Shown here piece after piece: positions 9,923 to 63,450 of a stretch of DNA of 64,000 nt. The notes beneath the pieces are model-generated. The model saw only the letters and a list, made by a program, of their open reading frames with translations. It was not told the DNA's origin and did no database searches. The stretch's first letter is position 1. Each line of letters opens with the position of its first letter. The translations under genes were made by a program, and so were the position numbers. Origin of the DNA: Acidimicrobiales bacterium (lineage in GTDB: Bacteria > Actinomycetota > Acidimicrobiia > Acidimicrobiales > Aldehydirespiratoraceae); contig OZ220727.1 of the NCBI GenBank assembly GCA_965116865.1, positions 1,156,798-1,220,797 of the forward strand, in the 5' to 3' direction.

Positions 9923-10264
9923 CCTGGAACGGACCTCAGAGCAAACGCAGACAGGCGAGAGTCCCAGCCCCATTCGCCGGTCACGCGCACCCTGCCCGCT
10001 GGAACGGACCTCAGAGCAAACGCAGACAGGCGAGAGTCCCAGCCCCATTCGCCGGTCACGCGCACCCTGCCCGCTGGAACGGACCTCAGAGCAAACGCAG
10101 ACAGGCGAGAGTCCCAGCCCCATTCGCCGGTCACGCGCACCCTGCCCGCTGGAACGGACCTCAGAGCAAACGCAGACAGGCGAGAGTCCCAGCCCCATTC
10201 GCCGGTCACGCGCACCCTGCCCGCTGGAACGGACCTCAGAGCAAACGCAGACAGGCGAGAGTCC
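9923..10264. repeat. 75-bp tandem array, 4.5 copies
   Basis: The segment ggaacggacctcagagc starts at 9926, 10001, 10076, 10151 and 10226. The last unit runs directly into dispersed-repeat copy 2. Confidence 0.95.
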
Positions 10265-17873: not shown

Positions 17874-19061
17874 TCATGGCGACTCTGAACGGGATCTGAG
17901 CCCTTCAAGCACCTCGGCGGTGTCGGCGCCCAGCGCAGGGGGTGCCAGGCGGTGCGAGGCCGGCGTGCGCGAGAAGCTGATGGGGTTGGCGACGGTGGCA
18001 GCCGACTGGCCGTCGCCGCTCGACAAACGGCGCACCGGGTCGAGTCCGAGCTCAGCAGCCAACCGGAACGCGTCCTCGATCGTGTTGACCGGACTGCAGG
18101 GCACCCCATGAGCAGTCAAGCGCTCCACCCACTGACCACAGGGCCGGTGCCGCAGGATGGACTCCAGTTCGGCCCTCACGGCCTCCCGGTGCTCAACACG
18201 AGCGGGATTGGACGACAAGCGACGGTCGGAAGCCAGGTGGGGCGCGTCCAGCGCCTCGCACAGAGCCGAGAACTGGCGATCGTTGGTGGCGGCGACGGCA
18301 ATGGGTTCCGTGGCCGTCGAGAACGTCTGGTACGGGGTGATGCTCGGATGGAGGTTCCCGATCCGGCCCGGCACCACCCCGCCGCTGACGAATGACGACG
18401 CCTGATTGACCAGCGCCGCCAGCGCCGACGACAGCAGGTTGACCTCGATGAACTGGCCCAGACCACTGGACTGTCGCTCGACCAGCGCGGCGACGACGCC
18501 GATCGTTGCATACAGCCCGGTCACCACATCGACTATGGCCACTCCGGTTCTGGCGGGCGTCCCTTCGGCCTCTCCGGTGATGCTCATCAGGCCGCTGGCC
18601 GCCTGCACGATGAAGTCGTAGCCCGTCAAGTCACGCCCGCCGGCGGGCCCGTAGGCGCTCACCCGGCAGTAGACCAGGCCCGGGTTGCCGGCCTGCAGCG
18701 ACTCGTAGTCGAGACCGAAGCGCTCCGCGGTGCCGGCGCGAAAGTTCTCCACCACCACGTCGGCGGAGCGGGCCAGGGCCCGGGCCTGGGCGAGCTGCTC
18801 GGGGTCGGCGAGGTCGAGGGTCGCGCTGCGCTTGTTGCGGTTCGCCGACAGGTAATAGGTGGCCGAGCCGTCATCGGCGAATGGCGGGCCCCACGAGCGG
18901 GTGTCGTCACCGAGGCCTGGCCGCTCGATCTTGATCACATCGGCACCGAGATCGCCCAGCATCATGGCGGCCAAGGGGCCGGCCAGGATGCGCGAGAAGT
19001 CGACAACCACGACACCGTCCAGCGGCCCTCCAGCCGAGACCTCAGCACCGGACATTGACAT
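17874..19061 (-). CDS. CaiB/BaiF family (class III) CoA-transferase
   Basis: The N-terminal segment VVVVDFSRILAGPLAAMMLGDLGADVIKIE is typical of family III CoA-transferases. Confidence 0.8.
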   Translation of the reverse strand: MSMSGAEVSAGGPLDGVVVVDFSRILAGPLAAMMLGDLGADVIKIERPGLGDDTRSWGPPFADDGSATYYLSANRNKRSATLDLADPEQLAQARALARSADVVVENFRAGTAERFGLDYESLQAGNPGLVYCRVSAYGPAGGRDLTGYDFIVQAASGLMSITGEAEGTPARTGVAIVDVVTGLYATIGVVAALVERQSSGLGQFIEVNLLSSALAALVNQASSFVSGGVVPGRIGNLHPSITPYQTFSTATEPIAVAATNDRQFSALCEALDAPHLASDRRLSSNPARVEHREAVRAELESILRHRPCGQWVERLTAHGVPCSPVNTIEDAFRLAAELGLDPVRRLSSGDGQSAATVANPISFSRTPASHRLAPPALGADTAEVLEGLRSRSESP

Positions 19062-19153
19062 TCACCCCGCCACTCTACGGCCACGGCGCGAGCTGGTTGC
19101 GACGCTGGTCCGCAGAGCCGCAGCTACGGTTCAGCTCCGCCTCTGGCGTTGTC

Positions 19154-20110
19154 TCAGCGTTCCTCGCGGTGGTAGGGCAGGCAGAGTTCGGCCGGTGCGG
19201 GAGACGGCCGGTTGCGGGCCCGCCAACTCACCAGCACCAACACAAGGACCGTGAGGACGAATGGCAGGATCCCGAGCAGCGCGGGCGAGATCGAGTTGAG
19301 ATGGACCCCCAGCACCGACACGTCGAAGGTCTGCAGGCGAGGCTGCAACGCCAGCGTGAAGCCGAACAACAGCGCGCCCGCGGCCAGCCGGCCGGGCCGC
19401 CACGCCCCGAAAATCACCAGAGCGACCGCTATCCAGCCGCGCCCGGCGACCATTCCCTCGGTCCATCCGGCCGCCATGTAGAGCGACAGGAAGGCGCCCG
19501 CGGCACCCGCGAAGGCGCCCCCCACAAGCACAGCCCCCGCACGGAGGCCCACCACCGAGTGCCCAGCGCCGTCCGTCGTCGCGGCGGACTCACCCACCGC
19601 CCGCAGGGCCAGGCCCAGCCGGGTGCGGTTCAGCACGAACCACGTCGCCGCTCCGAGCAGACCGGCCAGGTACACCACCGGCGGATGGTCGAACAGGACG
19701 GGGCCGATCCACGGTATGTCCGCCAACCCGACGATCCCCAAGTCGGTGAACACCGACTCCGGCCGGCGGATCACCCAGTCGCGGCCCACATAGGCCGACA
19801 GCCCCACTCCGCCGATGGTGATCGCCAGGCCCGACACGACCTGCCCGGCGCCGGCGGCCACGCTGACCACAGCATGCACCGCGGCCACGAGCATGCCCAC
19901 CACCGCCGCCGCGACGAAGCCGGCCCACGGGCTTCGGGTGCCCAGCGCCACGATGAATCCCGACACCGCCCCCATCGACATCATCCCCTCGACGCCGAGG
20001 TTCAGCACCCCGGCCCGCTCTGCGATGAGCTCGCCGAGAGCGGCCAGGTATATGAGGGTCCCGAACTGCACGCTCGCCACCAGCAGGCCGACGACGGCGT
20101 CTTCAGACAC
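19154..20110 (-). CDS. ABC transporter permease (BMP/nucleoside-type system)
   Basis: Polytopic 318-aa ORF that overlaps the upstream permease stop by 8 nt. Confidence 0.8.
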   Translation of the reverse strand: MSEDAVVGLLVASVQFGTLIYLAALGELIAERAGVLNLGVEGMMSMGAVSGFIVALGTRSPWAGFVAAAVVGMLVAAVHAVVSVAAGAGQVVSGLAITIGGVGLSAYVGRDWVIRRPESVFTDLGIVGLADIPWIGPVLFDHPPVVYLAGLLGAATWFVLNRTRLGLALRAVGESAATTDGAGHSVVGLRAGAVLVGGAFAGAAGAFLSLYMAAGWTEGMVAGRGWIAVALVIFGAWRPGRLAAGALLFGFTLALQPRLQTFDVSVLGVHLNSISPALLGILPFVLTVLVLVLVSWRARNRPSPAPAELCLPYHREER

Positions 20111-36765: not shown

Positions 36766-37026
36766 TACCGGCCGAGGCTAGTCAGGGGACCTCCGTCGAC
36801 AGCGTCGTGGTGTTCCCATACGGTGCCGAGTTCGAGGCACCGGCCGAAGCTGGTCAGAGGACCTCCGTCGACAGCGTCGTGGTGTTCCCATACGGTGCCG
36901 AGTTCGAGGCACCGGCCGAAGCTGGTCAGAGGACCTCCGTCGACAGCGTCGTGGTGTTCCCATACGGTGCCGAGTTCGAGGCACCGGCCGAAGCTGGTCA
37001 GGGGACCTCCGTCGACAGCGTCGTGC
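36766..37026. repeat. 72-bp tandem array (3.6 copies)
   Basis: The segment gacctccgtcgacagcgtcgtg starts at 36788, 36860, 36932 and 37004. Confidence 0.95.
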
Positions 37027-38392: not shown

Positions 38393-38467
38393 GTGCGGCC
38401 CCCTTGTTCTCTCCGGCACGGAACCGATCTGGGCATCGTCGCGCACCGACCGGATCCGTCTCTTCTA

Positions 38468-38819
38468 GCCGCGGCCGACGCACAACTGGGCGATCCCCCG
38501 CCGACCCAGCGTCGAGGCACCGACCACCCTCGGAATCCTCCTCAAGCCGCGGCCGACACACAACTGGGCGATCCCCCGCCGACCCAGCGTCGAGGCACCG
38601 ACCACCCTCGGAATCCTCCTCAAGCCGCGGCCGACACACAACTGGGCGATCCCCCGCCGACCCAGCGTCGAGGCACCGACCACCCTCGGAATCCTCCTCA
38701 AGCCGCGGCCGACACACAACTGGGCGATCCCCCGCCGACCCAGCGTCGAGGCACCGACCACCCTCGGAATCCTCCTCAAGCCGCGGCCGACACACAACTG
38801 GGCGATCCCCCGCCGACCC
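38468..38819. repeat. 78-bp tandem array (4.5 copies) in a divergent intergenic region
   Basis: The segment gccgcggccgac starts at 38468, 38546, 38624, 38702 and 38780. Confidence 0.95.
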
Positions 38820-44004: not shown

Positions 44005-44550
44005 GGAAGACCCCCGCGTGGGCGGCGCCTCAGACGGTCCACCTCCTCGCAGACCCGGCGCTTGGGGAAGACCCCCGCGTGGGCGGCGCCTCACCCCCGG
44101 ATCCGTCGCAGCGCCTCTGTCGCGTTCATCGGCAAAGCGGTCCGCACCCGCGTGGGCGGCCCTTCACCCCCGGATCCGTCGCAGCGCCTCTGTCGCGTTC
44201 ATCGGCAAAGCGGTCCGCACCCGCGTGGGCGGCCCTTCACCCCCGGATCCGTCGCAGCGCCTCTGTCGCGTTCATCGGCAAAGCGGTCCGCACCCGCGTG
44301 GGCGGCCCTTCACCCCCGGATCCGTCGCAGCGCCTCTGTCGCGTTCATCGGCAAAGCGGTCCGCACCCGCGTGGGCGGCCCTTCACCCCCGGATCCGTCG
44401 CAGCGCCTCTGTCGCGTTCATCGGCAAAGCGGTCCGCACCCGCGTGGGCGGCGCCTCACTCCCGGATCCGTCGCAGCGCCTCTGTCGCGTTCATCGGCAA
44501 AGCGGTCCGTACCCGCGTGGGCGGCCCTTCACCCCCGGATCCGTCGCAGC
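44005..44550. repeat. tandem array, 8 X copies (first interval 61, then 75, then 72 bp x5), seeded on the HIT gene stop
   Basis: The segment acccccgcgtgggcgg / acccgcgtgggcgg starts at 44010, 44071, 44146, 44218, 44290, 44362, 44434 and 44506. The unit contains ccttcacccccggatccgtcgcagc, which is the last 6 codons plus the TGA of the HIT gene. Confidence 0.95.
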
Positions 44551-45135: not shown

Positions 45136-47124
45136 TCAGCCCCGAGCCTCCACCTCGGCCGCCAAACGGGCCGCGAAGGACTCCAGCGGGACGTCGCGCT
45201 CGGGGCTCTTGGCGCCCCGGGCGTTGACCCCGACCGTGCCGCCGGCCATATCGTCGTCGCCCACCACCAGCACGTACGGGACCTTGGCCACCTTGGCGTT
45301 GCGGACCCGCTTCCCCAGGGGATCTTCCGCCAGACTCACCTCAGTGCGGAAGCCTCGGCGCCGCAGCACGGCGGCCACCTCGGCGGCGTAGTCGGCGTGG
45401 GCCGCCGCCACCGGCAGAACCTCGGCCTGCACTGGCGCCAGCCAGGCCGGGAAGGCGCCTGCGTAATGCTCGATCAACACCCCGAAGAAGCGCTCGACCG
45501 ACCCGAACAGAGCGCGGTGGATCATCACCGGGCGAGGACGGGAACCGTCCGACGCCACATATTCCAGCCCGAAGCGCTCGGGCAGGTTGAAGTCCACCTG
45601 GATGGTGGAGAGCTGCCACGACCGTCCGATGGCGTCGCGCACGTCGACGTCGATCTTGGGGCCGTAGAAGGCGCCGCCGCCCTCGTCGGTCTCGTAGTCG
45701 AGCCCGGCCGACTCCAGCGCAGCCCGCAGACCGGCGGTGGCGTCGTCCCACAGCGCCTCCTCGCCCACGTACTTCTCTGCGGGCCGGGTGGACAGCTTGG
45801 CTTGGAACTCGGTGAAGCCGAAAGCCTCGAGCACGCTCAGCACGAACTCCAGCAGCGAGGCCAACTCGGCTCCGACATGCTCGCGGACGCAGAAGATATG
45901 GGCGTCGTCCTGGGTGAAGCCCCGGCTGCGAAGCAGACCGTGCACCGCGCCCGACAGCTCGTAGCGGTACACCGCGCCGAGCTCGAACAACCGCATGGGC
46001 AGTTCCCGGTAGCTGCGCTGCGACGACCGGTAGACCATCACATGGAACGGACAGTTCATCGGCTTCGGGTAGTAGTCGGCGCCGTCCATCTCCATGGGCG
46101 GGTACATGCTCTCGGCGTAGAAGTCGAGATGTCCGGAGGTCTCCCACAGCACCGACTTGGCGATGTGGGGCGAGAACACGAGCTCGTACCCGCCGTCTGC
46201 GTGGCGCCTGCGCGAGTAGTCCTCCATCAGCGTGCGCACCAGCGCTCCCTTGGGATGCCATACCGCCAGGCCGGGACCCAGCTCGGTCGGCCACGACACC
46301 AGGTCGAGCTCCGCTGCCAGGCGCCGGTGGTCGCGCCGCTCGGCCTCGGCAAGGCGGTACAGGTGGGCCTTGAGCTCCTTGCGGGCAGCCCAGGCCGTGC
46401 CGTAGATGCGCTGCAGCATCGGGTTGCTCTCACTGCCCCGCCAGTAGGCCCCGCTGACCCGCTGCAGCGCGAAATGCCCCAGCCGCCCGGTGGACGGCAC
46501 ATGGGGGCCGAGGCACAGGTCCACGAACCCGTCGGAGTCGCCGTTGCCGTCATCGTTGCGGTAGCAGCTGACGTTGCCGCCCTCGGACGCCTCCGAGACC
46601 AGGTCGCGGCCGGCGTCCGCGCCCATGGCCACCGCCTCGATGATGGCCCGCTTGTAGGGATGCTCAGCGAACAGCTCCAGAGCGTCCGCGGCGGCCATCT
46701 CGACCCGCCGGAACGGCTGGTCGGCCTCGATGATCTCCCGCATGCGGGCCTCGATGCGATCCAGGTCGGCGTCGGAGAATGTGCCGCCTTCGGGAAGCTC
46801 GAAGTCGTAGTAGAAGCCGTGCTCTATGGGCGGCCCGATGGCGAAAGTGGCCCCCGGAAAGAGGTCCAGCACCGCTTGGGCCAGCACATGCGCGGTGGAG
46901 TGGCGCAGAGTGTGCAATCCCCGGTCCGACGATGCGGCGACGATCTCCACCGACGCGCCGTCGGGCAGTGGCGCAACCAGGTCCCTCTCGTGGCCATCGA
47001 CCACCGCGACCACCGCATCGGCAGCCAGTCGGGGGCCGATGGCGGCAGCCAGATCGGCCGCGCTGGACCCCTCGGGCAGCTCACGAGCGGAGCCGTCAGG
47101 CAGCGAGACCGAGACCACGGACAT
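45136..47124 (-). CDS. thrS: threonine--tRNA ligase
   Basis: TGS-domain start MSVVSVSLPDGSARELPEGSSAADLA, editing-domain HSTAHVLAQAV, and class II motifs. The likely start is ATG 47124. Confidence 0.9.
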   Translation of the reverse strand: MSVVSVSLPDGSARELPEGSSAADLAAAIGPRLAADAVVAVVDGHERDLVAPLPDGASVEIVAASSDRGLHTLRHSTAHVLAQAVLDLFPGATFAIGPPIEHGFYYDFELPEGGTFSDADLDRIEARMREIIEADQPFRRVEMAAADALELFAEHPYKRAIIEAVAMGADAGRDLVSEASEGGNVSCYRNDDGNGDSDGFVDLCLGPHVPSTGRLGHFALQRVSGAYWRGSESNPMLQRIYGTAWAARKELKAHLYRLAEAERRDHRRLAAELDLVSWPTELGPGLAVWHPKGALVRTLMEDYSRRRHADGGYELVFSPHIAKSVLWETSGHLDFYAESMYPPMEMDGADYYPKPMNCPFHVMVYRSSQRSYRELPMRLFELGAVYRYELSGAVHGLLRSRGFTQDDAHIFCVREHVGAELASLLEFVLSVLEAFGFTEFQAKLSTRPAEKYVGEEALWDDATAGLRAALESAGLDYETDEGGGAFYGPKIDVDVRDAIGRSWQLSTIQVDFNLPERFGLEYVASDGSRPRPVMIHRALFGSVERFFGVLIEHYAGAFPAWLAPVQAEVLPVAAAHADYAAEVAAVLRRRGFRTEVSLAEDPLGKRVRNAKVAKVPYVLVVGDDDMAGGTVGVNARGAKSPERDVPLESFAARLAAEVEARG

Positions 47125-47188
47125 CGCCTGCGAGGCTACCGCTGCCCCTGAGGGCGCGGCTCCGCTCGAACGGCGGTCCACGGCGTCC

Positions 47189-47464
47189 GAGCCGCTCCAA
47201 GGGGGCCGAGCCGCCCCAAGGAGGTCTCGTGCGGACGACTCCCTGCAGCCGCCGACGCCGGAGCCTCACCGTGCGCATCGCCCGCAACCGGAGAGGTCTC
47301 GTGCGGACGACTCCCTGCAGCCGCCGACGCCGAGATCTGGCAGCGGCGGCGCTGGTGCCCCAAGGAGGTCCCGTGCGGACGACTCCCTGCAGCCGCCGAC
47401 GCCGAGAGCTGGCAGCGGCGGCGCTGGTGCCCCAAGGAGGTCTCGTGCGGACGACTCCCTGCAG
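47189..47464. repeat. repeat-spacer-like array, period 72 bp (X 40 bp, Y 32 bp), in the thrS/fabI divergent region
   Basis: X (gaggtctcgtgcggacgactccctgcagccgccgacgccg) occurs at 47221, 47293 and 47365, with a partial copy at 47437. Y1 at 47261-47292 differs from Y2 and Y3 (47333, 47405), which differ from each other by 1 nt. Confidence 0.9.
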
Positions 47465-47582
47465 TGCTGTCCGGGGCTGATCCGTGGCCGGCGTGCTCCC
47501 TGATCGTCGCGACGCCCGAGAAGACCCCCGCGCCCCGGGCCGCGTCGTGGAACGGCACGTTCTCAAGGTACCGTTGGCGGCT

Positions 47583-48350
47583 GTGGGCATCCTCGACGGC
47601 AAGCGCATCGTCGTCACCGGAGTCCTGACCGATGCCTCGCTCGCCTACGGCGCGGCCGCGCTGGCACTGGCCGAGGGCGCCGAGATCGTTTTGACCGGAG
47701 CCGGCCGGGCCATGCGCCTCACCCAGCGCACCGCCCGCAAGCTCGGCGACGGCATCGACGTGGTGGAGTTCGACGCTACCGAGCCGTCCCACGCCGACGC
47801 CCTGCGCGAGCACCTCGCCGGCAGCTGGGGGCAGGTGGACGGCGCGCTCCACGCCATCGGGTTCGCTCCCGAGGTGTGCCTGGGCGGCACGTTCATGGAA
47901 GCCAGCTGGGAAGACGTCAAGGTGGCGCTGGAGATCTCCACCTACTCGCTGAAGATGCTCGCCGACGCGGTCGCTCCTCTGATGCCGGCCGGCGGCTCGA
48001 TCCTGGGCCTGGACTTCGACGCCACCCGTGCCTGGCCGGGCTACGACTGGATGGGCGTGGCCAAGGCCGGCCTCGAGTCCACCTGCCGGTACCTGGCCCG
48101 CTACCTCGGACCGAAGGGGATCCGGGTGAACCTGGTCTCCGCCGGTCCGATGAGGACCATGGCCGCACGCTCCATCCCCGGCTTCTCCGACTTCGAGGAC
48201 GCCTGGGCGATGCGGGCGCCGCTCGGTTGGAGCGTCACCGACCCGACCGGCGTGTCGCGCACGATCGTGGCCATGCTGAGCGACTGGCTGCCGGCCACCA
48301 CCGGATCGGTCGTGCATGCGGACGGCGGCTACCACGCCGTCGGCGCCTGA
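47583..48350 (+). CDS. fabI: enoyl-[acyl-carrier-protein] reductase (NADH), FabI/InhA type
   Basis: GTG 47583 gives (M)GILDGKRIVVTGVLTDASLAYG. Later segments include GYDWMGVAKAGLES and VNLVSAGPMRT. Confidence 0.85.
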   Translation: MGILDGKRIVVTGVLTDASLAYGAAALALAEGAEIVLTGAGRAMRLTQRTARKLGDGIDVVEFDATEPSHADALREHLAGSWGQVDGALHAIGFAPEVCLGGTFMEASWEDVKVALEISTYSLKMLADAVAPLMPAGGSILGLDFDATRAWPGYDWMGVAKAGLESTCRYLARYLGPKGIRVNLVSAGPMRTMAARSIPGFSDFEDAWAMRAPLGWSVTDPTGVSRTIVAMLSDWLPATTGSVVHADGGYHAVGA

Positions 48351-48595: not shown

Positions 48596-49654
48596 TCACG
48601 GGCCGCTGTCGTCGGTCTCGTCGAAGATGTCGCCCACCAGGCCCTCGAGGATGTCCTCCAGGGTGACCACGCCCAGCATGCGCCCGGTGTCGCTTCGCAC
48701 CAGAGCCATGTGAACTCGCGACCGCCGCATGTCGAGCAGGAGGTCGCGACCGGCCATATCAGGGCCCACCACCCGCATGCGGCGCACCAACTCCAACGGC
48801 AGCGGATCGTCGCAGGCCTCCTCCGGCATGCGGATCAGGTCCTTGGCGTGGACGAACCCCAGCACGTCGTCGGGTTCCGACCCCCACATCGGGATCCGGG
48901 TGTGTCCGGTGGCGGCCACCACATCCTCGAGTCGGGCCGCGGACGCCCCCCGGGGCACGGACACCAGCCGGTCGGCGGGCACCATCACCGATCCGACCGA
49001 CTGGGCACGGAACTCCAGCGCGCCCGACAGCAACTCGTGCTCGGTGGGCTCGATCACGCCCTCCTCGCGGGCGCCCGCGAGCAGCGTCCGGAACTCGTTG
49101 ATGGTGAGCGCGGTGTTGATCTCGTCCACCGGATTGATGCCCATCAGGCGCACGATGCGGTTCCCCACGAAGTTGAGGGACGCGATGACCGGTCTGAACA
49201 CTGCACCGTAGATGCGCATGGCCGGCGCCAGCAGCCGTGCCGACGCCTCCGGCTCGGCAATGGCCATGTTCTTGGGGACCATCTCGCCCACCACCACATG
49301 CAGCGTCGTCACCACGAACAGCGCCACCGCGAAGGAGATCGTGTGCAGGACGCCGGACGGAACCTCCACGACCCTCTCGATGACCGGCTCGATGAGGTGG
49401 GCGATGGCCGGCTCGGCCACATAGCCCAGCACCAGCGAGGCCATGGTGATGCCGAACTGGGCTCCAGCGAGCTGGGTCTGCAGGTCGCGCACCGCTGCCA
49501 GGGCGATGCCGCTGCGCCTGTCGCCGTCGGACGCGGCCGCCTCCAAGCGAACAGCACGGGCCGCGACCAGCGCGAACTCGGCCGCCACGAAAAAGGCGTT
49601 GGCCCCGAGCATCACCACCGCCACAACCAAGGCTACGACCGTCGCCGTGCTCAC
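48596..49654 (-). CDS. CNNM/CorC/TlyC family protein (DUF21 + CBS pair)
   Basis: GTG 49654 gives VSTATVVALVVAVVMLGANAFFVAAEFALV (DUF21), followed by CBS-pair-like regions. The track ORF start at 49849 lies inside the repeat. Confidence 0.8.
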   Translation of the reverse strand: MSTATVVALVVAVVMLGANAFFVAAEFALVAARAVRLEAAASDGDRRSGIALAAVRDLQTQLAGAQFGITMASLVLGYVAEPAIAHLIEPVIERVVEVPSGVLHTISFAVALFVVTTLHVVVGEMVPKNMAIAEPEASARLLAPAMRIYGAVFRPVIASLNFVGNRIVRLMGINPVDEINTALTINEFRTLLAGAREEGVIEPTEHELLSGALEFRAQSVGSVMVPADRLVSVPRGASAARLEDVVAATGHTRIPMWGSEPDDVLGFVHAKDLIRMPEEACDDPLPLELVRRMRVVGPDMAGRDLLLDMRRSRVHMALVRSDTGRMLGVVTLEDILEGLVGDIFDETDDSGP

Positions 49655-49876
49655 CGCGACACCCCCGAACCGACCAAGCACCGACCCCGCCGAAAAAAAC
49701 AGCCCACAACCGTCGCCGCGCTCACCGCGACACCCCCGAACCGACCAAGCACCGACCCCGCCGAAAAAACAGCCCACGACCGTCGCCGTGCTCACCGCGA
49801 CACCCCCGAACCGACCAAGCACCGACCCCGCCGAAAAAACAGCCCGCAACCGTCGCCGTGCTCACCGCGACACCCC
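49636..49876. repeat. 70/71-bp tandem array (3.4 copies) seeded on a GTGA stop/start junction
   Basis: The segment g(t/c)gctcaccgcgacaccccc occurs at 49647, 49718, 49788 and 49858. The A7 tract at 49693-49699 contrasts with A6 tracts in the other units. Confidence 0.95.
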
Positions 49877-51235
49877 CGGTGCTGCCGGGCCGCACCCGTC
49901 CCTTCGCCCCAGCGCGGGCGCGGCTACGGATACGACAGGCGCCGCCACCCGGACAGCGGCGATCCTCAAACGGTCGACAGCCACCACCTCGAGGCGCCAG
50001 CCGTCCACGGTGACGACCTCGCCGGGCACCGGTATGTGGCCCAGCCTGTCCAGCACCAGCCCGGCCAGCGTCTCGTAGCCGCCTTCGGGCATGGCGAAGC
50101 CGGTAGCGTCGAACACCTCGTCGGTGTGCAGCGACGCGGACAGCACCGTCGAGCCCCGGGACTCGGACCGGGTGCGCTCAGGGGTGGACGAGTCGTGCTC
50201 GTCGTCGATCTCACCGACGATCTCCTCAAGCACGTCCTCGAGGGTGATGATCCCCGCCGTGCCGCCGTGCTCGTCGACCACCACGGCCAGCAGACCCGCG
50301 CCGGCGCGCAGGTCGTGCAGGATGTCGTTGAGATCGCGGGACTCGGGCACGGCAAGCACCGGCTGCATCAACTGCGACACCGGCGTGGAATGCCGTTGCG
50401 GCCCGGGCACGGCGAACAGCGATTTCACATGGACCACGCCGGCCACGTTGTCGAGATGGCCCGCCGTGACCGGAAACCGGGAATGGCCGGTGCCGACGGC
50501 CAGTTCGGCGAGGTAAGCCACCGAGGCGTCGGCCTCGATGGCGACCACCTCCACCCTGGGCACCATGGCGTCGTCGGCCTGCTTGTCGGCCAGGCGGATC
50601 GACCGGGTGAGCAGCCACACCTCGTCCTCGTCGAGCATCCCCCCCTGCCCCGATGAAACGAAGAGGTGTTCGAGTTCGTCGCGATCAGGCACCGTGTCTA
50701 TCTCCTCGCGCGGCTCCATGCCGAGTCGGCGCACCATCCAGTTGGCCGCGCCGTTGAGGAAAGCCACCACAGGCCGGGCCAGCACGCCGTACACGGTGGT
50801 CGGAACGGCCACCGCCACCGCTGTCCCGAAGGGCTTCGTGGTGGCCACCGCCTTGGGGACGAGCTCGCCCATCATCATCTGCACGATCGTGGCCAGCATC
50901 AGCGCGACCGCGACGGACACGCCCGAGGGCGTGTTGCCCCCGAACAGCGCCTCGACTCCGGGCGCAATCATCGGCGCCAGGGCCGGTTCGACCATGAAGC
51001 CGAGAAGCAACGACGAGACCGTGATGCCGATCTGCGCGCCCGACAGGTGAAACGACAGCCGGGCCACCAAGCGCTGGACCATCCGGGCCCGGCGGTCTCC
51101 GGCCCCTGCCCGTTCGTCCACTCGGGTGCGGTCCACCGCCACCAGCGCGAACTCCATGGCGACGAAGAAGGCGTTGGCTGCCATCAGCGCGAGAGCGGCC
51201 AAGAGCCACAGCGCGGTCTCTATCGGTCCTCCCAA
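49862..51235 (-). CDS. CNNM/CorC/TlyC family protein (DUF21 + CBS pair + CorC_HlyC)
   Basis: N-terminus LLAALALMAANAFFVAMEFALVAVDR, then CBS-like segments and the C-terminal transporter-associated domain. 457 aa. Confidence 0.85.
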   Translation of the reverse strand: MGGPIETALWLLAALALMAANAFFVAMEFALVAVDRTRVDERAGAGDRRARMVQRLVARLSFHLSGAQIGITVSSLLLGFMVEPALAPMIAPGVEALFGGNTPSGVSVAVALMLATIVQMMMGELVPKAVATTKPFGTAVAVAVPTTVYGVLARPVVAFLNGAANWMVRRLGMEPREEIDTVPDRDELEHLFVSSGQGGMLDEDEVWLLTRSIRLADKQADDAMVPRVEVVAIEADASVAYLAELAVGTGHSRFPVTAGHLDNVAGVVHVKSLFAVPGPQRHSTPVSQLMQPVLAVPESRDLNDILHDLRAGAGLLAVVVDEHGGTAGIITLEDVLEEIVGEIDDEHDSSTPERTRSESRGSTVLSASLHTDEVFDATGFAMPEGGYETLAGLVLDRLGHIPVPGEVVTVDGWRLEVVAVDRLRIAAVRVAAPVVSVAAPALGRRDGCGPAAPGVSR

Positions 51236-62520: not shown

Positions 62521-63279
62521 TCACCCAGCCTGACCCTCAGCCGCTCCGGGTTGGATGTCGAGGAGGGGGCCGAGCTCCCGGAGGCGGGCGCGTCGTATGC
62601 GGTAGTCGGGCACGGCCTGGGCGACCACAGCCCAGTATTCGGGCGTGTGGCCGCGGACGCGCAGGTGTGCGAGCTCGTGGGCGATCACGTAGTCGAGGAG
62701 GGCGGGCGGGGCCATGACGGCACGCCAGTTGAAGCGCAGCGTGCCGTCCGGGGCGCAGCTCGCCCAGCGGCGGCGCTGACCGCGGACGAGGACCGCTTTC
62801 GGCTGCGCGCCGAGGAGGCTCGCGATGCGCTCCACGCGCGGCGGGAGCTTCAGCGCGGCGCGGTCGCGGTACCACGCCTCGAATGCGGCCCGCACCTTCT
62901 CGAGCCGTTCCTCGCCTCGCAGAAAGCGGGGGACGCCGACGTCGAACTCCCAGTGGTGGAACCCGACCTCGACCCTGGCGCCGTCGATGGGATGCACGGT
63001 GAGGCGCACCGACCGGCCGAGATAGGGCAGGGACTCGCCGCTGACGAACCGGCGGGGCGGTGCGCACGCCGTGGCCGCGCCGTCGTGCCGGACGATCCAG
63101 CCGGCACGGCGACGCACAGTCTCCTCGACTTGCTCCGCAGGCGTGTCGACAGGCGCCGCCACCCTGACGACACCGGGCGCATCGACGGTGACCTCGATCG
63201 TCTTGCGCCGTCTCGGGCTGCGGACGACCTGGTACTCGATCCGGGCTTCGCCGAAGACGACCTCCCCGCGCTCTGTCAC
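62521..63279 (-). CDS. DUF45/YgjP-like (M48-type) zinc metallopeptidase
   Basis: The HELAHL zinc motif lies within LDYVIAHELAHLRVRGH. The real start is GTG 63279 (VTERGEVVFGEARIEYQVVRS). This gene type is a common companion of type I R-M systems. Confidence 0.8.
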   Translation of the reverse strand: MTERGEVVFGEARIEYQVVRSPRRRKTIEVTVDAPGVVRVAAPVDTPAEQVEETVRRRAGWIVRHDGAATACAPPRRFVSGESLPYLGRSVRLTVHPIDGARVEVGFHHWEFDVGVPRFLRGEERLEKVRAAFEAWYRDRAALKLPPRVERIASLLGAQPKAVLVRGQRRRWASCAPDGTLRFNWRAVMAPPALLDYVIAHELAHLRVRGHTPEYWAVVAQAVPDYRIRRARLRELGPLLDIQPGAAEGQAG

Positions 63280-63450
63280 ACGAGCCTCTTGCGGGCCATC
63301 TCCATGACCTTCGAGCACCGCGACGACGACGCCGTACAGGCCCGCGTCACACGAGCCTCTTGCGGGCCATCTCCATGACCTTCGAGCACCGCGACGACGA
63401 CGCCGTACAGGCCCGCGTCACACGAGCCTCTTGCGGGCCATCTCCATGAC
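63275..63450. repeat. 71-bp tandem array (X-Y-X-Y-X) seeded on the hsdR stop / DUF45 start GTGA junction
   Basis: X (gtcacacgagcctcttgcgggccatctccatgac) occurs at 63275, 63346 and 63417. Y (cttcgagcaccgcgacgacgacgccgtacaggcccgc) occurs twice. Confidence 0.95.

What the first reader, a model, noticed from the sequence alone, without database searches (positions are those of the whole stretch)
47189..47464. The thrS/fabI divergent region has a CRISPR-like layout: four 40-bp repeats with 32-bp spacers of two kinds
X (gaggtctcgtgcggacgactccctgcagccgccgacgccg) lies at 47221, 47293 and 47365, with a 28-bp partial copy at 47437. The period is exactly 72 bp. Spacer 1 (gagcctcaccgtgcgcatcgcccgcaaccgga) is unrelated to spacers 2 and 3 (aga(t/g)ctggcagcggcggcgctggtgccccaag). 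The 32 bp left of the first X end in the same gccccaag. Different inserts between identical repeats cannot arise from simple unit duplication alone. The array lies between the divergent essential genes thrS and fabI.
Basis: seen in the sequence. Interest (0 to 1): 0.6.

Follow-up and report, generated by a model that had tools for sequence, protein, structure and literature searches.

The report
Stray CRISPR spacer insertions between genes
The repeat array between thrS and fabI is most likely a scar left when this bacterium's own CRISPR spacer-inserting enzyme hit the wrong site at least twice, and it is one of several hundred such scars in a genome where that enzyme seems to have become a major maker of tandem repeats.

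Summary
A 40-nt repeat lies at 47221, 47293 and 47365, with 28 nt more at 47437. The period is exactly 72, and there are two unrelated "spacer" kinds.

The natural phase is 36+36. The array runs 47213-47464, which is 3.5 x 72 bp. It is four copies of a 36-nt target (X') around 36-nt inserts, and GAGCC sits directly in front.

The same genome has an intact type I-G CRISPR-Cas system (Cas4/Cas1 fusion, Cas2). Its 146-repeat array has 36-nt repeats, 35-39-nt spacers (modal unit 72) and a leader ending GAGCG.

Genome-wide evidence:
- About 220 clean private arrays and about 80 single X-Y-X units share this geometry.
- They show a leader-like AGC motif.
- Many inserts are exact copies of distant genome segments, with TTC/TAC beside the source.
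- Congeners show single-copy "empty" sites.

I conclude that the locus is an off-target spacer-integration product (a neo-CRISPR scar), not a working CRISPR array and not a MIRU-like minisatellite. The sources of its two inserts were not found, and no strain comparison was possible.

This scan has noted similar scars in other genomes. Earlier follow-ups on this genome read its arrays as MIRU-like.

The parts
47208..47212 (+). GAGCC, a leader-like motif directly 5' of the first 36-nt unit. AGC sits at -4..-2, as in the true CRISPR leader end GAGCG|repeat.
   Evidence: sequence. (true leader end ...GCAAGCGAGCG|GTCAGG on the - strand). AGC at -4..-2 on one side of 26/72 exact-36 loci against 3.8% expected.
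47213..47464 (+). The whole array: 252 bp = 3 x 72 + 36, in the form (X'Y)3X'.
   Evidence: Genome-wide, array length modulo period peaks at 36-39 for arrays of period 70-76.
47213..47248 (+). X'1, a 36-nt duplicated target (GCCCCAAGGAGGTCTCGTGCGGACGACTCCCTGCAG). It contains AAGGAGG (47218-47224) and GTG (47229-47231).
47261..47292 (+). S1, a 32-nt unique patch (GAGCCTCACCGTGCGCATCGCCCGCAACCGGA) flanked by identical 40-nt copies (47221-47260 and 47293-47332). It is read as a second captured fragment inserted at an offset phase. The true insert is probably 36 nt, with 4 boundary bases that cannot be assigned.
   Evidence: unrelated to S2; no other copy found; offset-phase second inserts at G000 1432440 and 1393507.
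47285..47320 (+). X'2. Its last 28 nt are identical to X'. Its first 8 nt (CAACCGGA) belong to the S1 patch.
47321..47356 (+). Y'2, a 36-nt insert (CCGCCGACGCCGAGATCTGGCAGCGGCGGCGCTGGT). The first 12 nt of the same insert also follow X'1 (47249-47260).
   Evidence: Its length equals the modal spacer of the true array.
47357..47392 (+). X'3, with a T>C change at 47371.
47393..47428 (+). Y'3, a duplicate of Y'2 with one difference (47408 G against 47336 T).
47429..47464 (+). X'4, the last 36-nt unit. The native right flank follows.
47465..47469 (-). TGCTG. Read on the - strand it is CAGCA|, a second leader-like motif (AGC at -4..-2) facing the array from the right, so the orientation of the first event is ambiguous.
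   Evidence: Motif statistics.
45136..47124 (-). thrS coding sequence (start ATG at 47124).
   Evidence: ORF; alignment with congeners fixes the start.
47583..48350 (+). fabI (enoyl-ACP reductase) coding sequence. The start is GTG at 47583 (MGILDGKR...).
   Evidence: congeners start ATGGGCCTACTTGACGGCAAA at the same place.
47170..47522 (.). A stretch with no counterpart in congeners. It replaces their ~1.1-kb MshC/CysS-like gene. The array lies inside it. Only the first ~12 codons of that gene survive (about 47523-47558, - strand).

Best explanation
The array is a product of off-target (ectopic) spacer integration by the genome's own type I-G CRISPR adaptation module, the Cas4/Cas1 fusion plus Cas2.

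The integrase mistook GAGCC followed by a 36-nt stretch (X', 47213-47248) for 'leader end + repeat'. It cut at both ends of X', joined in a 36-nt captured fragment (Y'), and gap repair duplicated X'. This gave X'-Y'-X' and added 72 bp. The Y'-X' unit was later copied once more, which I infer was by slippage or unequal exchange. A second captured fragment (S1, 32-nt unique core) was then integrated into the unit nearest GAGCC, at a phase offset by 8-12 nt, again adding exactly 72 bp.

The result only looks like a CRISPR array. Its repeat is unrelated to the resident repeat, so it should not yield crRNAs. It most likely persists because it lies in dispensable DNA left by loss of an MshC-like gene.

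Shown: the geometry, the motif, the resident system, and the class-wide properties. Inferred: the order of events, the slippage step, and neutrality.
For: Locus:
- Array length is 3 x 72 + 36, with four 36-nt units and 36-nt inserts.
- GAGCC lies at -5..-1.
- S1 is unrelated to S2.
- The 40-nt copies around S1 are identical, while the older Y'X' copies have two substitutions. This fits S1 being the newest unit, next to the leader-like end.

Resident system:
- The cas set is a full type I-G set: Cas2, Cas4g/Cas1g (754 bits, full length), Cas3g, Csb2, Csb1.
- It lies beside a 146-repeat array with 36-nt repeats.
- Its unit lengths are 72 (66), 73 (32), 74 (29), 71 (10), 75 (6).
- Its leader ends GAGCG.

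Class-wide properties:
- Private arrays have periods 72 (about 122), 73 (50), 74 (30), 71 (29), 75 (20).
- Length modulo period peaks at 36 (35) and 37 (31). Other period classes are flat.
- About 80 single X-Y-X units have X = 36-39.
- AGC sits at -4..-2 in 26/72 loci against 3.8% expected.
- Y has a second copy bounded exactly at both ends in 23/173 loci, against 15/3000 random 36-mers.
- TTC or TAC abuts the source in 9/23, against 2.9% expected. Type I-U/I-G Cas4/1 selects TTN (PMC6547450).
- In all 9 orthologous sites found in congeners, there is one X-sized segment and no Y.
- 15 loci have identical X with unrelated Y's, and two have offset-phase second inserts.
Against: - No source, and so no PAM, was found for Y' or S1 in the own genome, 38 congeners, or the viral, metagenome and genome collections.
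- No empty site is available for this locus, because the region is not conserved.
- The second insert is 32 nt between 40-nt copies, not 36/36. That needs 4 chance or microhomology matches (P about 0.03) or an aberrant duplication size.
- Congener G043 has a Cas4/Cas1g and a 36-nt-repeat array but no burst.
- A parallel 28+33 class has no cognate cas genes in this assembly.
- Identical Y-X units are amplified up to 18 times in private arrays, yet the true array has only one duplicated spacer. The amplification step is therefore not understood.
Confidence: 0.73

Rival explanations
1. An unknown insertion-plus-duplication process that adds about 72 nt (a short captured piece plus a compensating target duplication) and is not catalysed by Cas1-Cas2. 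The match with the resident CRISPR would then be coincidental or indirect.
For: The S1 event is 40 + 32, not 36 + 36, while the sum stays 72. Apparent X of 40-45 nt at lag 72 is commoner than chance extension predicts. G043 has a type I-G module without a burst. The 28+33 class exists without any I-E genes.
Against: The period spectrum of private arrays mirrors the true array's unit spectrum, 71-75 with mode 72. Where the source is known, the apparent excess of X belongs to the captured piece, giving true Y of 34-40 nt and X of about 36-37. The junction motif equals the true leader end. TTC/TAC beside the sources fits the known I-G/I-U PAM (PMC6547450). The 28-nt class targets resemble type I-E repeat stems.
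Confidence: 0.12
2. An ordinary locus-specific minisatellite (MIRU/VNTR-like). A 72-bp unit was duplicated by replication slippage, and one copy later had a 32-nt stretch replaced by gene conversion, template switching or a repair patch.
For: The units are head-to-tail with an exact 72-bp period, and Y'2/Y'3 are plain duplicates. Earlier follow-ups on this genome read its arrays as MIRU-like. 72 = 24 codons keeps frames open on both strands.
Against: Slippage gives whole-number copies, not n + 36 nt. S1 is unrelated to S2 and has no donor in the genome. X is unique, so this is not a dispersed family. The genes are divergent, so no translational coupling can be served. Class-wide, Y is imported from distant loci and absent from congeners' sites.
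Confidence: 0.1
3. A functional element: an orphan CRISPR array that gives guide RNAs, or a regulatory array (repeated ribosome-binding sites, promoters or a structured leader) that tunes thrS or fabI.
For: Each X' carries AAGGAGG plus GTG facing fabI. An 83-codon frame runs from 47229 to the TGA at 47478-47480. The array sits in a promoter-bearing gap.
Against: There is no Rfam family, including CRISPR-DR, T-box and leaders. No promoter- or terminator-like sites were found. RNA folding is no better than shuffles, z = 0.63. X' is unrelated to the resident repeat. The sequence is absent from 38 congeners and from the collections searched. The region is non-conserved filler.
Confidence: 0.03

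Closest known systems
Neo-CRISPR loci from non-canonical (off-target) spacer integration by Cas1-Cas2 (Nivala, Shipman & Church 2018, Nat Microbiol 3:310; not held here, cited as summarised in bioRxiv 10.1101/148544, PMC7054753 and PMC6698737)
   Same: A repeat-length target duplication surrounds a spacer-length captured fragment at a non-CRISPR site. The site resembles the leader-repeat junction. Repeated hits can build a small array.
   Different: That work used E. coli type I-E with overproduced Cas1-Cas2, and natural cases were only circumstantial (10.1101/148544). Here the system is a natural type I-G Cas4/Cas1 fusion. There are several hundred loci in one 3.3-Mb genome, many inserts are copied from the cell's own chromosome, and units are amplified to as many as 18 identical copies.
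Canonical type I-G (formerly I-U) CRISPR array and adaptation (Almendros et al. 2019, PMC6547450)
   Same: 36-nt duplication, 35-39-nt inserts, TTN-type motif beside the sources, and addition next to a leader-like end.
   Different: The repeat here is arbitrary local DNA with no similarity to the resident repeat. There is no leader and there are no adjacent cas genes. Two of the three inserts are duplicates, and crRNA production is not expected.
Isolated or mini CRISPR arrays thought to arise by off-target spacer acquisition (Shmakov et al. 2020, CRISPR J 3:535; not held, cited as summarised in PMC13142298)
   Same: Small arrays far from cas genes, attributed to stray integration.
   Different: As I recall, and not checked here, those arrays were recognised because their repeats resemble genuine CRISPR repeats. 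Here the duplicated targets are unrelated to the repeat and would be missed by CRISPR finders.
MIRU-VNTR loci of mycobacteria
   Same: Intergenic tandem units of some tens of bp with variable copy number in a high-GC Gram-positive type genome. Small ORFs run through the units.
   Different: MIRUs are a dispersed sequence family between co-directional genes. This unit is unique, lies between divergent genes, has n + 36-nt geometry, and holds two unrelated inserts.
Repeat-length 'ruler' of spacer integration (Wang et al. 2016, Haloarcula hispanica type I-B, PMC4872114)
   Same: Duplication starts at the leader-repeat junction and ends at a measured distance. Altered internal motifs give aberrant duplication sizes.
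   Different: That paper reports 29-33 bp instead of 30. Whether a 40-nt duplication with a 32-nt insert can arise this way in type I-G is untested.

Membership tests
Off-target Cas1-Cas2 integration product (neo-CRISPR unit) | Target duplication of the resident CRISPR's repeat length | tested here: met
   The resident repeat is 36 nt. The array is 252 bp = 3 x 72 + 36 with 36-nt X' units. The class-wide remainder peaks at 36-37.
Off-target Cas1-Cas2 integration product (neo-CRISPR unit) | Insert of the resident system's spacer length | tested here: inconclusive
   Y' is 36 nt, and true spacers are 35-39 with mode 36, so Y' meets it. S1 has only a 32-nt unique core between 40-nt copies. It fits only if 4 boundary bases match by chance or microhomology.
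Off-target Cas1-Cas2 integration product (neo-CRISPR unit) | An intact adaptation module (Cas1, Cas2) in the same genome | tested here: met
   Cas4g/Cas1g of 549 aa matches NF049935 at 753.8 bits over the full model. Cas2 matches TIGR01573. The rest of the type I-G set is also present.
Off-target Cas1-Cas2 integration product (neo-CRISPR unit) | The insert is captured DNA with an identifiable protospacer and PAM | tested here: inconclusive
   For this locus no source was found for Y' or S1. For the class, a bounded second copy exists for 23/173 Y against 0.5% of random 36-mers. TTC/TAC is present at 9/23 sources against 2.9% expected.
Off-target Cas1-Cas2 integration product (neo-CRISPR unit) | Relatives show the empty site (one copy of the target, no insert) | not testable with these tools
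   For this locus, 47170-47522 has no counterpart in congeners. For the class, all 9 informative sites in G018/G043 are empty.
Off-target Cas1-Cas2 integration product (neo-CRISPR unit) | The junction resembles the leader-repeat junction | tested here: met
   GAGCC|G lies at 47208-47213, against the true leader end GAGCG|G. The motif is enriched about 10-fold class-wide.
Working CRISPR array | Repeats of the family processed by the resident Cas6-type nuclease | tested here: not met
   X' against the resident repeat is no better than shuffles in either orientation (p = 0.32 and 0.10). No Rfam CRISPR-DR hit.
Working CRISPR array | Distinct spacers, a leader, and (usually) neighbouring cas genes | tested here: not met
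   Two of the three inserts are duplicates. The neighbours are thrS and fabI. The cas genes lie about 165 kb away.
MIRU/VNTR-type minisatellite | Unit belongs to a dispersed sequence family | tested here: not met
   No other copy of the unit is in the genome, in 38 congeners, or in the collections.
MIRU/VNTR-type minisatellite | All units derive from one unit by duplication | tested here: not met
   S1 is unrelated to S2/S3. The array length is n + 0.5 units.

The most novel reading that the evidence does not exclude
In this lineage the CRISPR adaptation machinery has acted as a genome-wide mutator. It has written several hundred repeat-spacer units into ordinary DNA. One class matches the resident type I-G geometry (36+36). 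A second class has 28+33 geometry and I-E-like targets, but its system is no longer in the assembly. Many of these units then grew into the 'private' minisatellites that fill the genome's intergenic gaps. The thrS/fabI locus, with two unrelated inserts and the newer one next to a leader-like motif, would be the de novo birth of a CRISPR-type array caught in the act.
Probability: 0.6. Interest if true: 0.85.

Novelty: new variant of a known kind. Interest (0 to 1): 0.75.

Why it matters
Off-target spacer integration is known mainly from E. coli cells that overproduce Cas1-Cas2. How often it happens in nature, what it costs, and whether it can seed new CRISPR arrays are open questions.

This locus and its several hundred siblings give a natural data set for a type I-G Cas4/Cas1 integrase. 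It offers:
- target-site rules (AGC at -4..-2 and a 36-nt ruler);
- self-derived inserts with their PAM;
- repeated hits at one site, including offset phases.

It also gives a concrete, testable origin for a genome full of about 72-bp minisatellites that otherwise look like MIRUs. CRISPR-finding software would miss such arrays, because their repeats are arbitrary local DNA.

Tried and rejected
- Source of the inserts. I searched with BLAST or pattern search for S1, Y' and X' in the own genome, in 38 congeners with up to 3 mismatches, in viral contigs, and in metagenome and genome contigs. Nothing was found.
- Strain comparison.
- Orthologous empty site for this locus. Congeners carry an MshC/CysS-like gene here and share no sequence with 47170-47522.
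- RNA element. No Rfam hit, and the fold is no better than shuffles.
- Promoters and terminators. No consensus sites.
- 'Y has a second copy in the genome' as plain evidence. I rejected this after a control showed that 13.7% of random 36-mers also have one. I replaced it with the bounded-copy test.
- PAM side against leader side. Only three confidently oriented cases (2:1), so this is inconclusive. An earlier 4/4 count with a looser orientation score is not relied on.
- Cognate system for the 28+33 class. No Cas1e, Cas2e or Cas7e and no I-E array in the genome. A congener's second Cas1 is I-C-like with 37-nt repeats.
- Association of the burst with cas1 presence among congeners. Both the Cas1-less G018 and the Cas4/Cas1g-bearing G043 lack the burst, so presence alone does not explain it.

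Full report
THE OBSERVATION

The gap between thrS (CDS 45136..47124, minus strand) and fabI (CDS 47583..48350, plus strand) holds the repeats as described. The 40-nt X lies at 47221, 47293 and 47365, the last with one T>C at 47371. Its first 28 nt recur at 47437. No such match occurs in 100 shuffles. TRF gives period 72, 3.5 copies, 47215-47464. Spacers 2 and 3 differ by one base. Spacer 1 is no more similar to them than shuffled sequence, with 7/32 identities and p = 0.6-0.8.

Aligning the four 72-nt rows shows that periodicity begins at 47213 and ends at 47464. That is 252 bp = 3 x 72 + 36. The array is best written X'-slot-X'-Y'-X'-Y'-X', where X' is GCCCCAAG plus 28 nt (36 nt in all) and Y' is 36 nt. 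The odd 32-nt patch (47261-47292) replaces the last 24 nt of the first slot and the first 8 nt of the second X'.

THE CONTEXT THAT EXPLAINS IT

The unit is unique in the genome, but its geometry is not.
- TRF on the whole 3.32-Mb, 68.5% GC, single-contig genome finds 797 non-overlapping arrays. Their periods peak sharply at 72 (123), 73 (50), 74 (30), 71 (29) and 75 (20).
- One of the 72-bp arrays is a true CRISPR at G000 1358520-1369103. It has 146 identical 36-nt repeats. Its unit lengths are 72 (66), 73 (32), 74 (29), 71 (10) and 75 (6), so spacers are 35-39 nt.
- Beside it lies a complete type I-G cas set: Cas2, a 549-aa Cas4g/Cas1g fusion (NF049935, 754 bits, full length), Cas3g with its extension, Csb2 and Csb1.
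- The repeat read on the minus strand ends ATTGAAGG. From my own knowledge this is the usual 3' end, so the leader is on the cas side and ends ...GCAAGCGAGCG|GTCAGG.

SIX CLASS-WIDE TESTS

1. Remainder. For 219 clean private arrays of period 70-76, total length modulo period peaks at 36 (35 arrays), 37 (31), 38 (14) and 39 (12). Other period classes are flat. The arrays are therefore (XY)nX with X equal to the CRISPR repeat length plus chance extension. They are not whole-number duplications.

2. Founders. About 80 isolated X-Y-X units have X = 36-39 and lags of 71-75 in the same proportions as the true array.

3. Junction motif. AGC lies at -4..-2 beside one end of 26/72 loci with X of exactly 36, against 3.8% expected. 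The oriented consensus (G/C)AGC(C/A)|G equals the true leader end GAGCG|G. The orientation step inflates the logo. The fixed-position count does not depend on it.

4. Y is imported.
   - 23 of 173 Y segments have a second copy elsewhere in the genome at 94% identity or more, with homology that stops at both Y boundaries.
   - The same is true of only 15 of 3000 random 36-mers.
   - The cruder measure 'has a second copy' is uninformative here, because 13.7% of random 36-mers also have one.
   - Fifteen Y are 100% identical over their full length to a distant site.
   - Where apparent X exceeds 36, the source match usually runs into it. This gives true inserts of 34-40 nt.

5. PAM. TTC or TAC abuts the source copy in 9/23 cases, against 2.9% expected. 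The Cas4/Cas1 fusion of Geobacter type I-U (now called I-G) selects TTN (PMC6547450).

6. Empty sites. I sampled 800 kb from two congeners with about 85-95% flank identity. All nine orthologous sites whose flanks align up to the array carry one X-sized segment (28-42 nt, recognisably homologous to X in most) and no Y.

These results are what Cas1-Cas2 integration predicts. The integrase makes staggered attacks at the two ends of a repeat-length target, joins in a spacer, and gap repair duplicates the target.

THE LOCUS AS A MEMBER OF THIS CLASS

GAGCC lies at 47208-47212, directly before X'. The right flank read on the other strand is CAGCA|, so both ends carry AGC at -4..-2. Only 2 of 72 class members do. 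Y' is 36 nt, the modal spacer length.

Two unrelated inserts between identical repeats are not unique to this locus. By strict criteria, 15 loci have three or more X copies with unrelated Y's. Examples are G000 780350, 1710034, 3247556 and 1008269, and 1432440 where two insert kinds alternate.

At 1432440 and 1393507 the second insert used a 36-nt target offset by 9-19 nt from the first, straddling an old insert and an old target. The thrS/fabI patch has the same layout.

My reconstruction, which is inferred, has four steps:
1. The ancestral sequence was GAGCC-X'-TGCTG.
2. The first integration gave X'-Y'-X'.
3. One further copy of Y'-X' was made by slippage or unequal exchange. Two substitutions have accumulated since (47371, and 47336/47408).
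4. A second integration put S1 into the GAGCC-proximal unit. The 40-nt copies around S1 are still identical, so this event is the younger. It lies at the leader-like end, as in true arrays.

WEAK POINTS

- Neither insert has a detectable source in the own genome, in 38 congeners, or in the viral, metagenome or genome collections. No PAM can therefore be read for this locus.
- No empty site exists for it. In congeners the gap holds a 387-aa MshC/CysS-like gene (HIGH and KMSKS motifs) on the minus strand. G000 has lost this gene, and 47170-47522 has no counterpart there.
- S1 is 32 nt between 40-nt copies, not 36/36. This requires four boundary matches by chance or microhomology (about 3%) or an aberrant duplication size. 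Aberrant sizes are reported for Haloarcula type I-B when repeat motifs are altered (PMC4872114).
- The burst is lineage-specific. G000 has 30 arrays of period 70-76 per 400 kb. The Cas1-less G018 has 1, and G043, which has a Cas4/Cas1g and a 36-nt-repeat array, also has 1. What unleashed the integrase is unknown.
- Identical units are amplified up to 18-fold in private arrays, but the true array has only one duplicated spacer. The amplification step is not understood.
- A second class of about 60 loci has X = 28 and Y = 32-34 (period 61). These also have bounded sources, and their targets have consensus nnnnnnCCCnnGCnCGnGCGG, which resembles type I-E repeat stems. They have no I-E genes or array in this assembly.

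WHAT IT IS NOT

- It is not a working CRISPR array. X' is unrelated to the resident repeat, there is no CRISPR-DR or other Rfam hit, and there are no cas neighbours.
- It shows no sign of being a regulatory RNA or a promoter array. There are no consensus promoter or terminator sites, and the fold is no better than shuffles (z = 0.63).
- The open frames that run through it are side effects of 72 = 24 codons. One is 83 codons on the plus strand from GTG 47229. The other is about 140 codons on the minus strand from the relic MshC start.
- It is not MIRU-like. The unit is private, the genes are divergent, and the units are not all copies of one another.

COMPARISON WITH WHAT IS KNOWN

Off-target integration that spawns neo-CRISPR arrays was shown in E. 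coli overproducing type I-E Cas1-Cas2, with only circumstantial natural cases. This is Nivala et al. 2018, as summarised in bioRxiv 10.1101/148544 and PMC7054753. Off-target acquisition is one proposed origin of isolated arrays (Shmakov et al. 2020, as summarised in PMC13142298).

I found no report of a natural genome with hundreds of such events, nor of their growth into minisatellites. A full-text search of a partial library cannot prove absence.

This scan has noted similar scars in other genomes. Its earlier follow-ups on this genome called the arrays MIRU-like. The tests above argue against that reading.

VERDICT

The CRISPR-like reading is right about the mechanism of origin, not about function. 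The locus itself is probably neutral. Its interest lies in being a clean two-insert example of a genome-wide process.

Noticed in passing
G000:C1 genome-wide (e.g. 1200802, 1444634, 1981200, 18348-19352); in the window e.g. 44005 (= G000 1200802): There is a second class of about 60 private X-Y-X units and arrays with X = 28 nt, Y = 32-34 nt and period 61. Twenty-seven of the 60 Y segments have a copy elsewhere in the genome. The oriented targets show CCC..GC.CG.GCGG, like a type I-E repeat stem. No Cas1e, Cas2e, Cas7e or I-E array is in the assembly.
   Followed up: partly
window 47170-47582: Congeners carry a 387-aa MshC/CysS-like gene (HIGH and KMSKS motifs) between thrS and fabI, on the minus strand. 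This genome has lost it here and keeps only about 12 codons of its start (about 47523-47558). Its nearest homologues in G000 are 56% and 42% identical, at about 2.365 Mb.
   Followed up: partly
G000:C1:1432440-1432963: A mini-array has 36-nt repeats (GTCGCACAACAACCATGCCCGCTCCGTCAACCGCCG) and two alternating insert kinds (37 and 36 nt). The repeat of the second event straddles the first event's insert and target, so this is a nested, offset-phase integration.
   Followed up: partly
G000:C1:1106966-1107150 and true array spacer at 1361614: The insert of a private 73-bp x 2.5 array shares 27 of 29 aligned nt with spacer 42 of the true CRISPR array. The remaining ~7 nt of each differ completely. 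Both may come from related copies of one element.
   Followed up: no
G000:C1:1427538-1427645: An X-Y-X unit has an X (GTCGGAATCGAACCGACGGCCTGC...) that looks like the T-arm end of a tRNA gene. The insertion appears to have duplicated part of a tRNA gene.
   Followed up: no
window 9924-10264, 36767-37025, 38460-38819, 44074-44550, 49638-49878, 63275-63450: Other private arrays in the same window have periods 70-78 and copy numbers of n + about 0.5. They have the same (XY)nX geometry as the thrS/fabI array.
   Followed up: partly
G000 whole genome: 13.7% of random 36-mers have a second near-identical copy elsewhere, so the genome is unusually repetitive. There are also 12 arrays or more of 339-363-bp units (probably giant repeat proteins) at 0.42, 0.83, 1.55, 2.0, 2.98 and 3.05-3.07 Mb.
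   Followed up: no
L067 (G008:C1:660466-660799): A congener whose Cas1 is type I-C-like, with 37-nt repeats (91 units), also has a 4.5-unit array. The repeat of that small array differs from the G000 type I-G repeat at two positions (CCTTCAATGGAGGGCCGGGCAGCTGCCCGGCCTGAC).
   Followed up: no
window 47229-47480 (+) and 47136-47558 (-): Because 72 is a multiple of 3, open frames run through the array on both strands. They have 83 and about 140 codons, with repeated peptides. They would mislead gene callers.
   Followed up: partly
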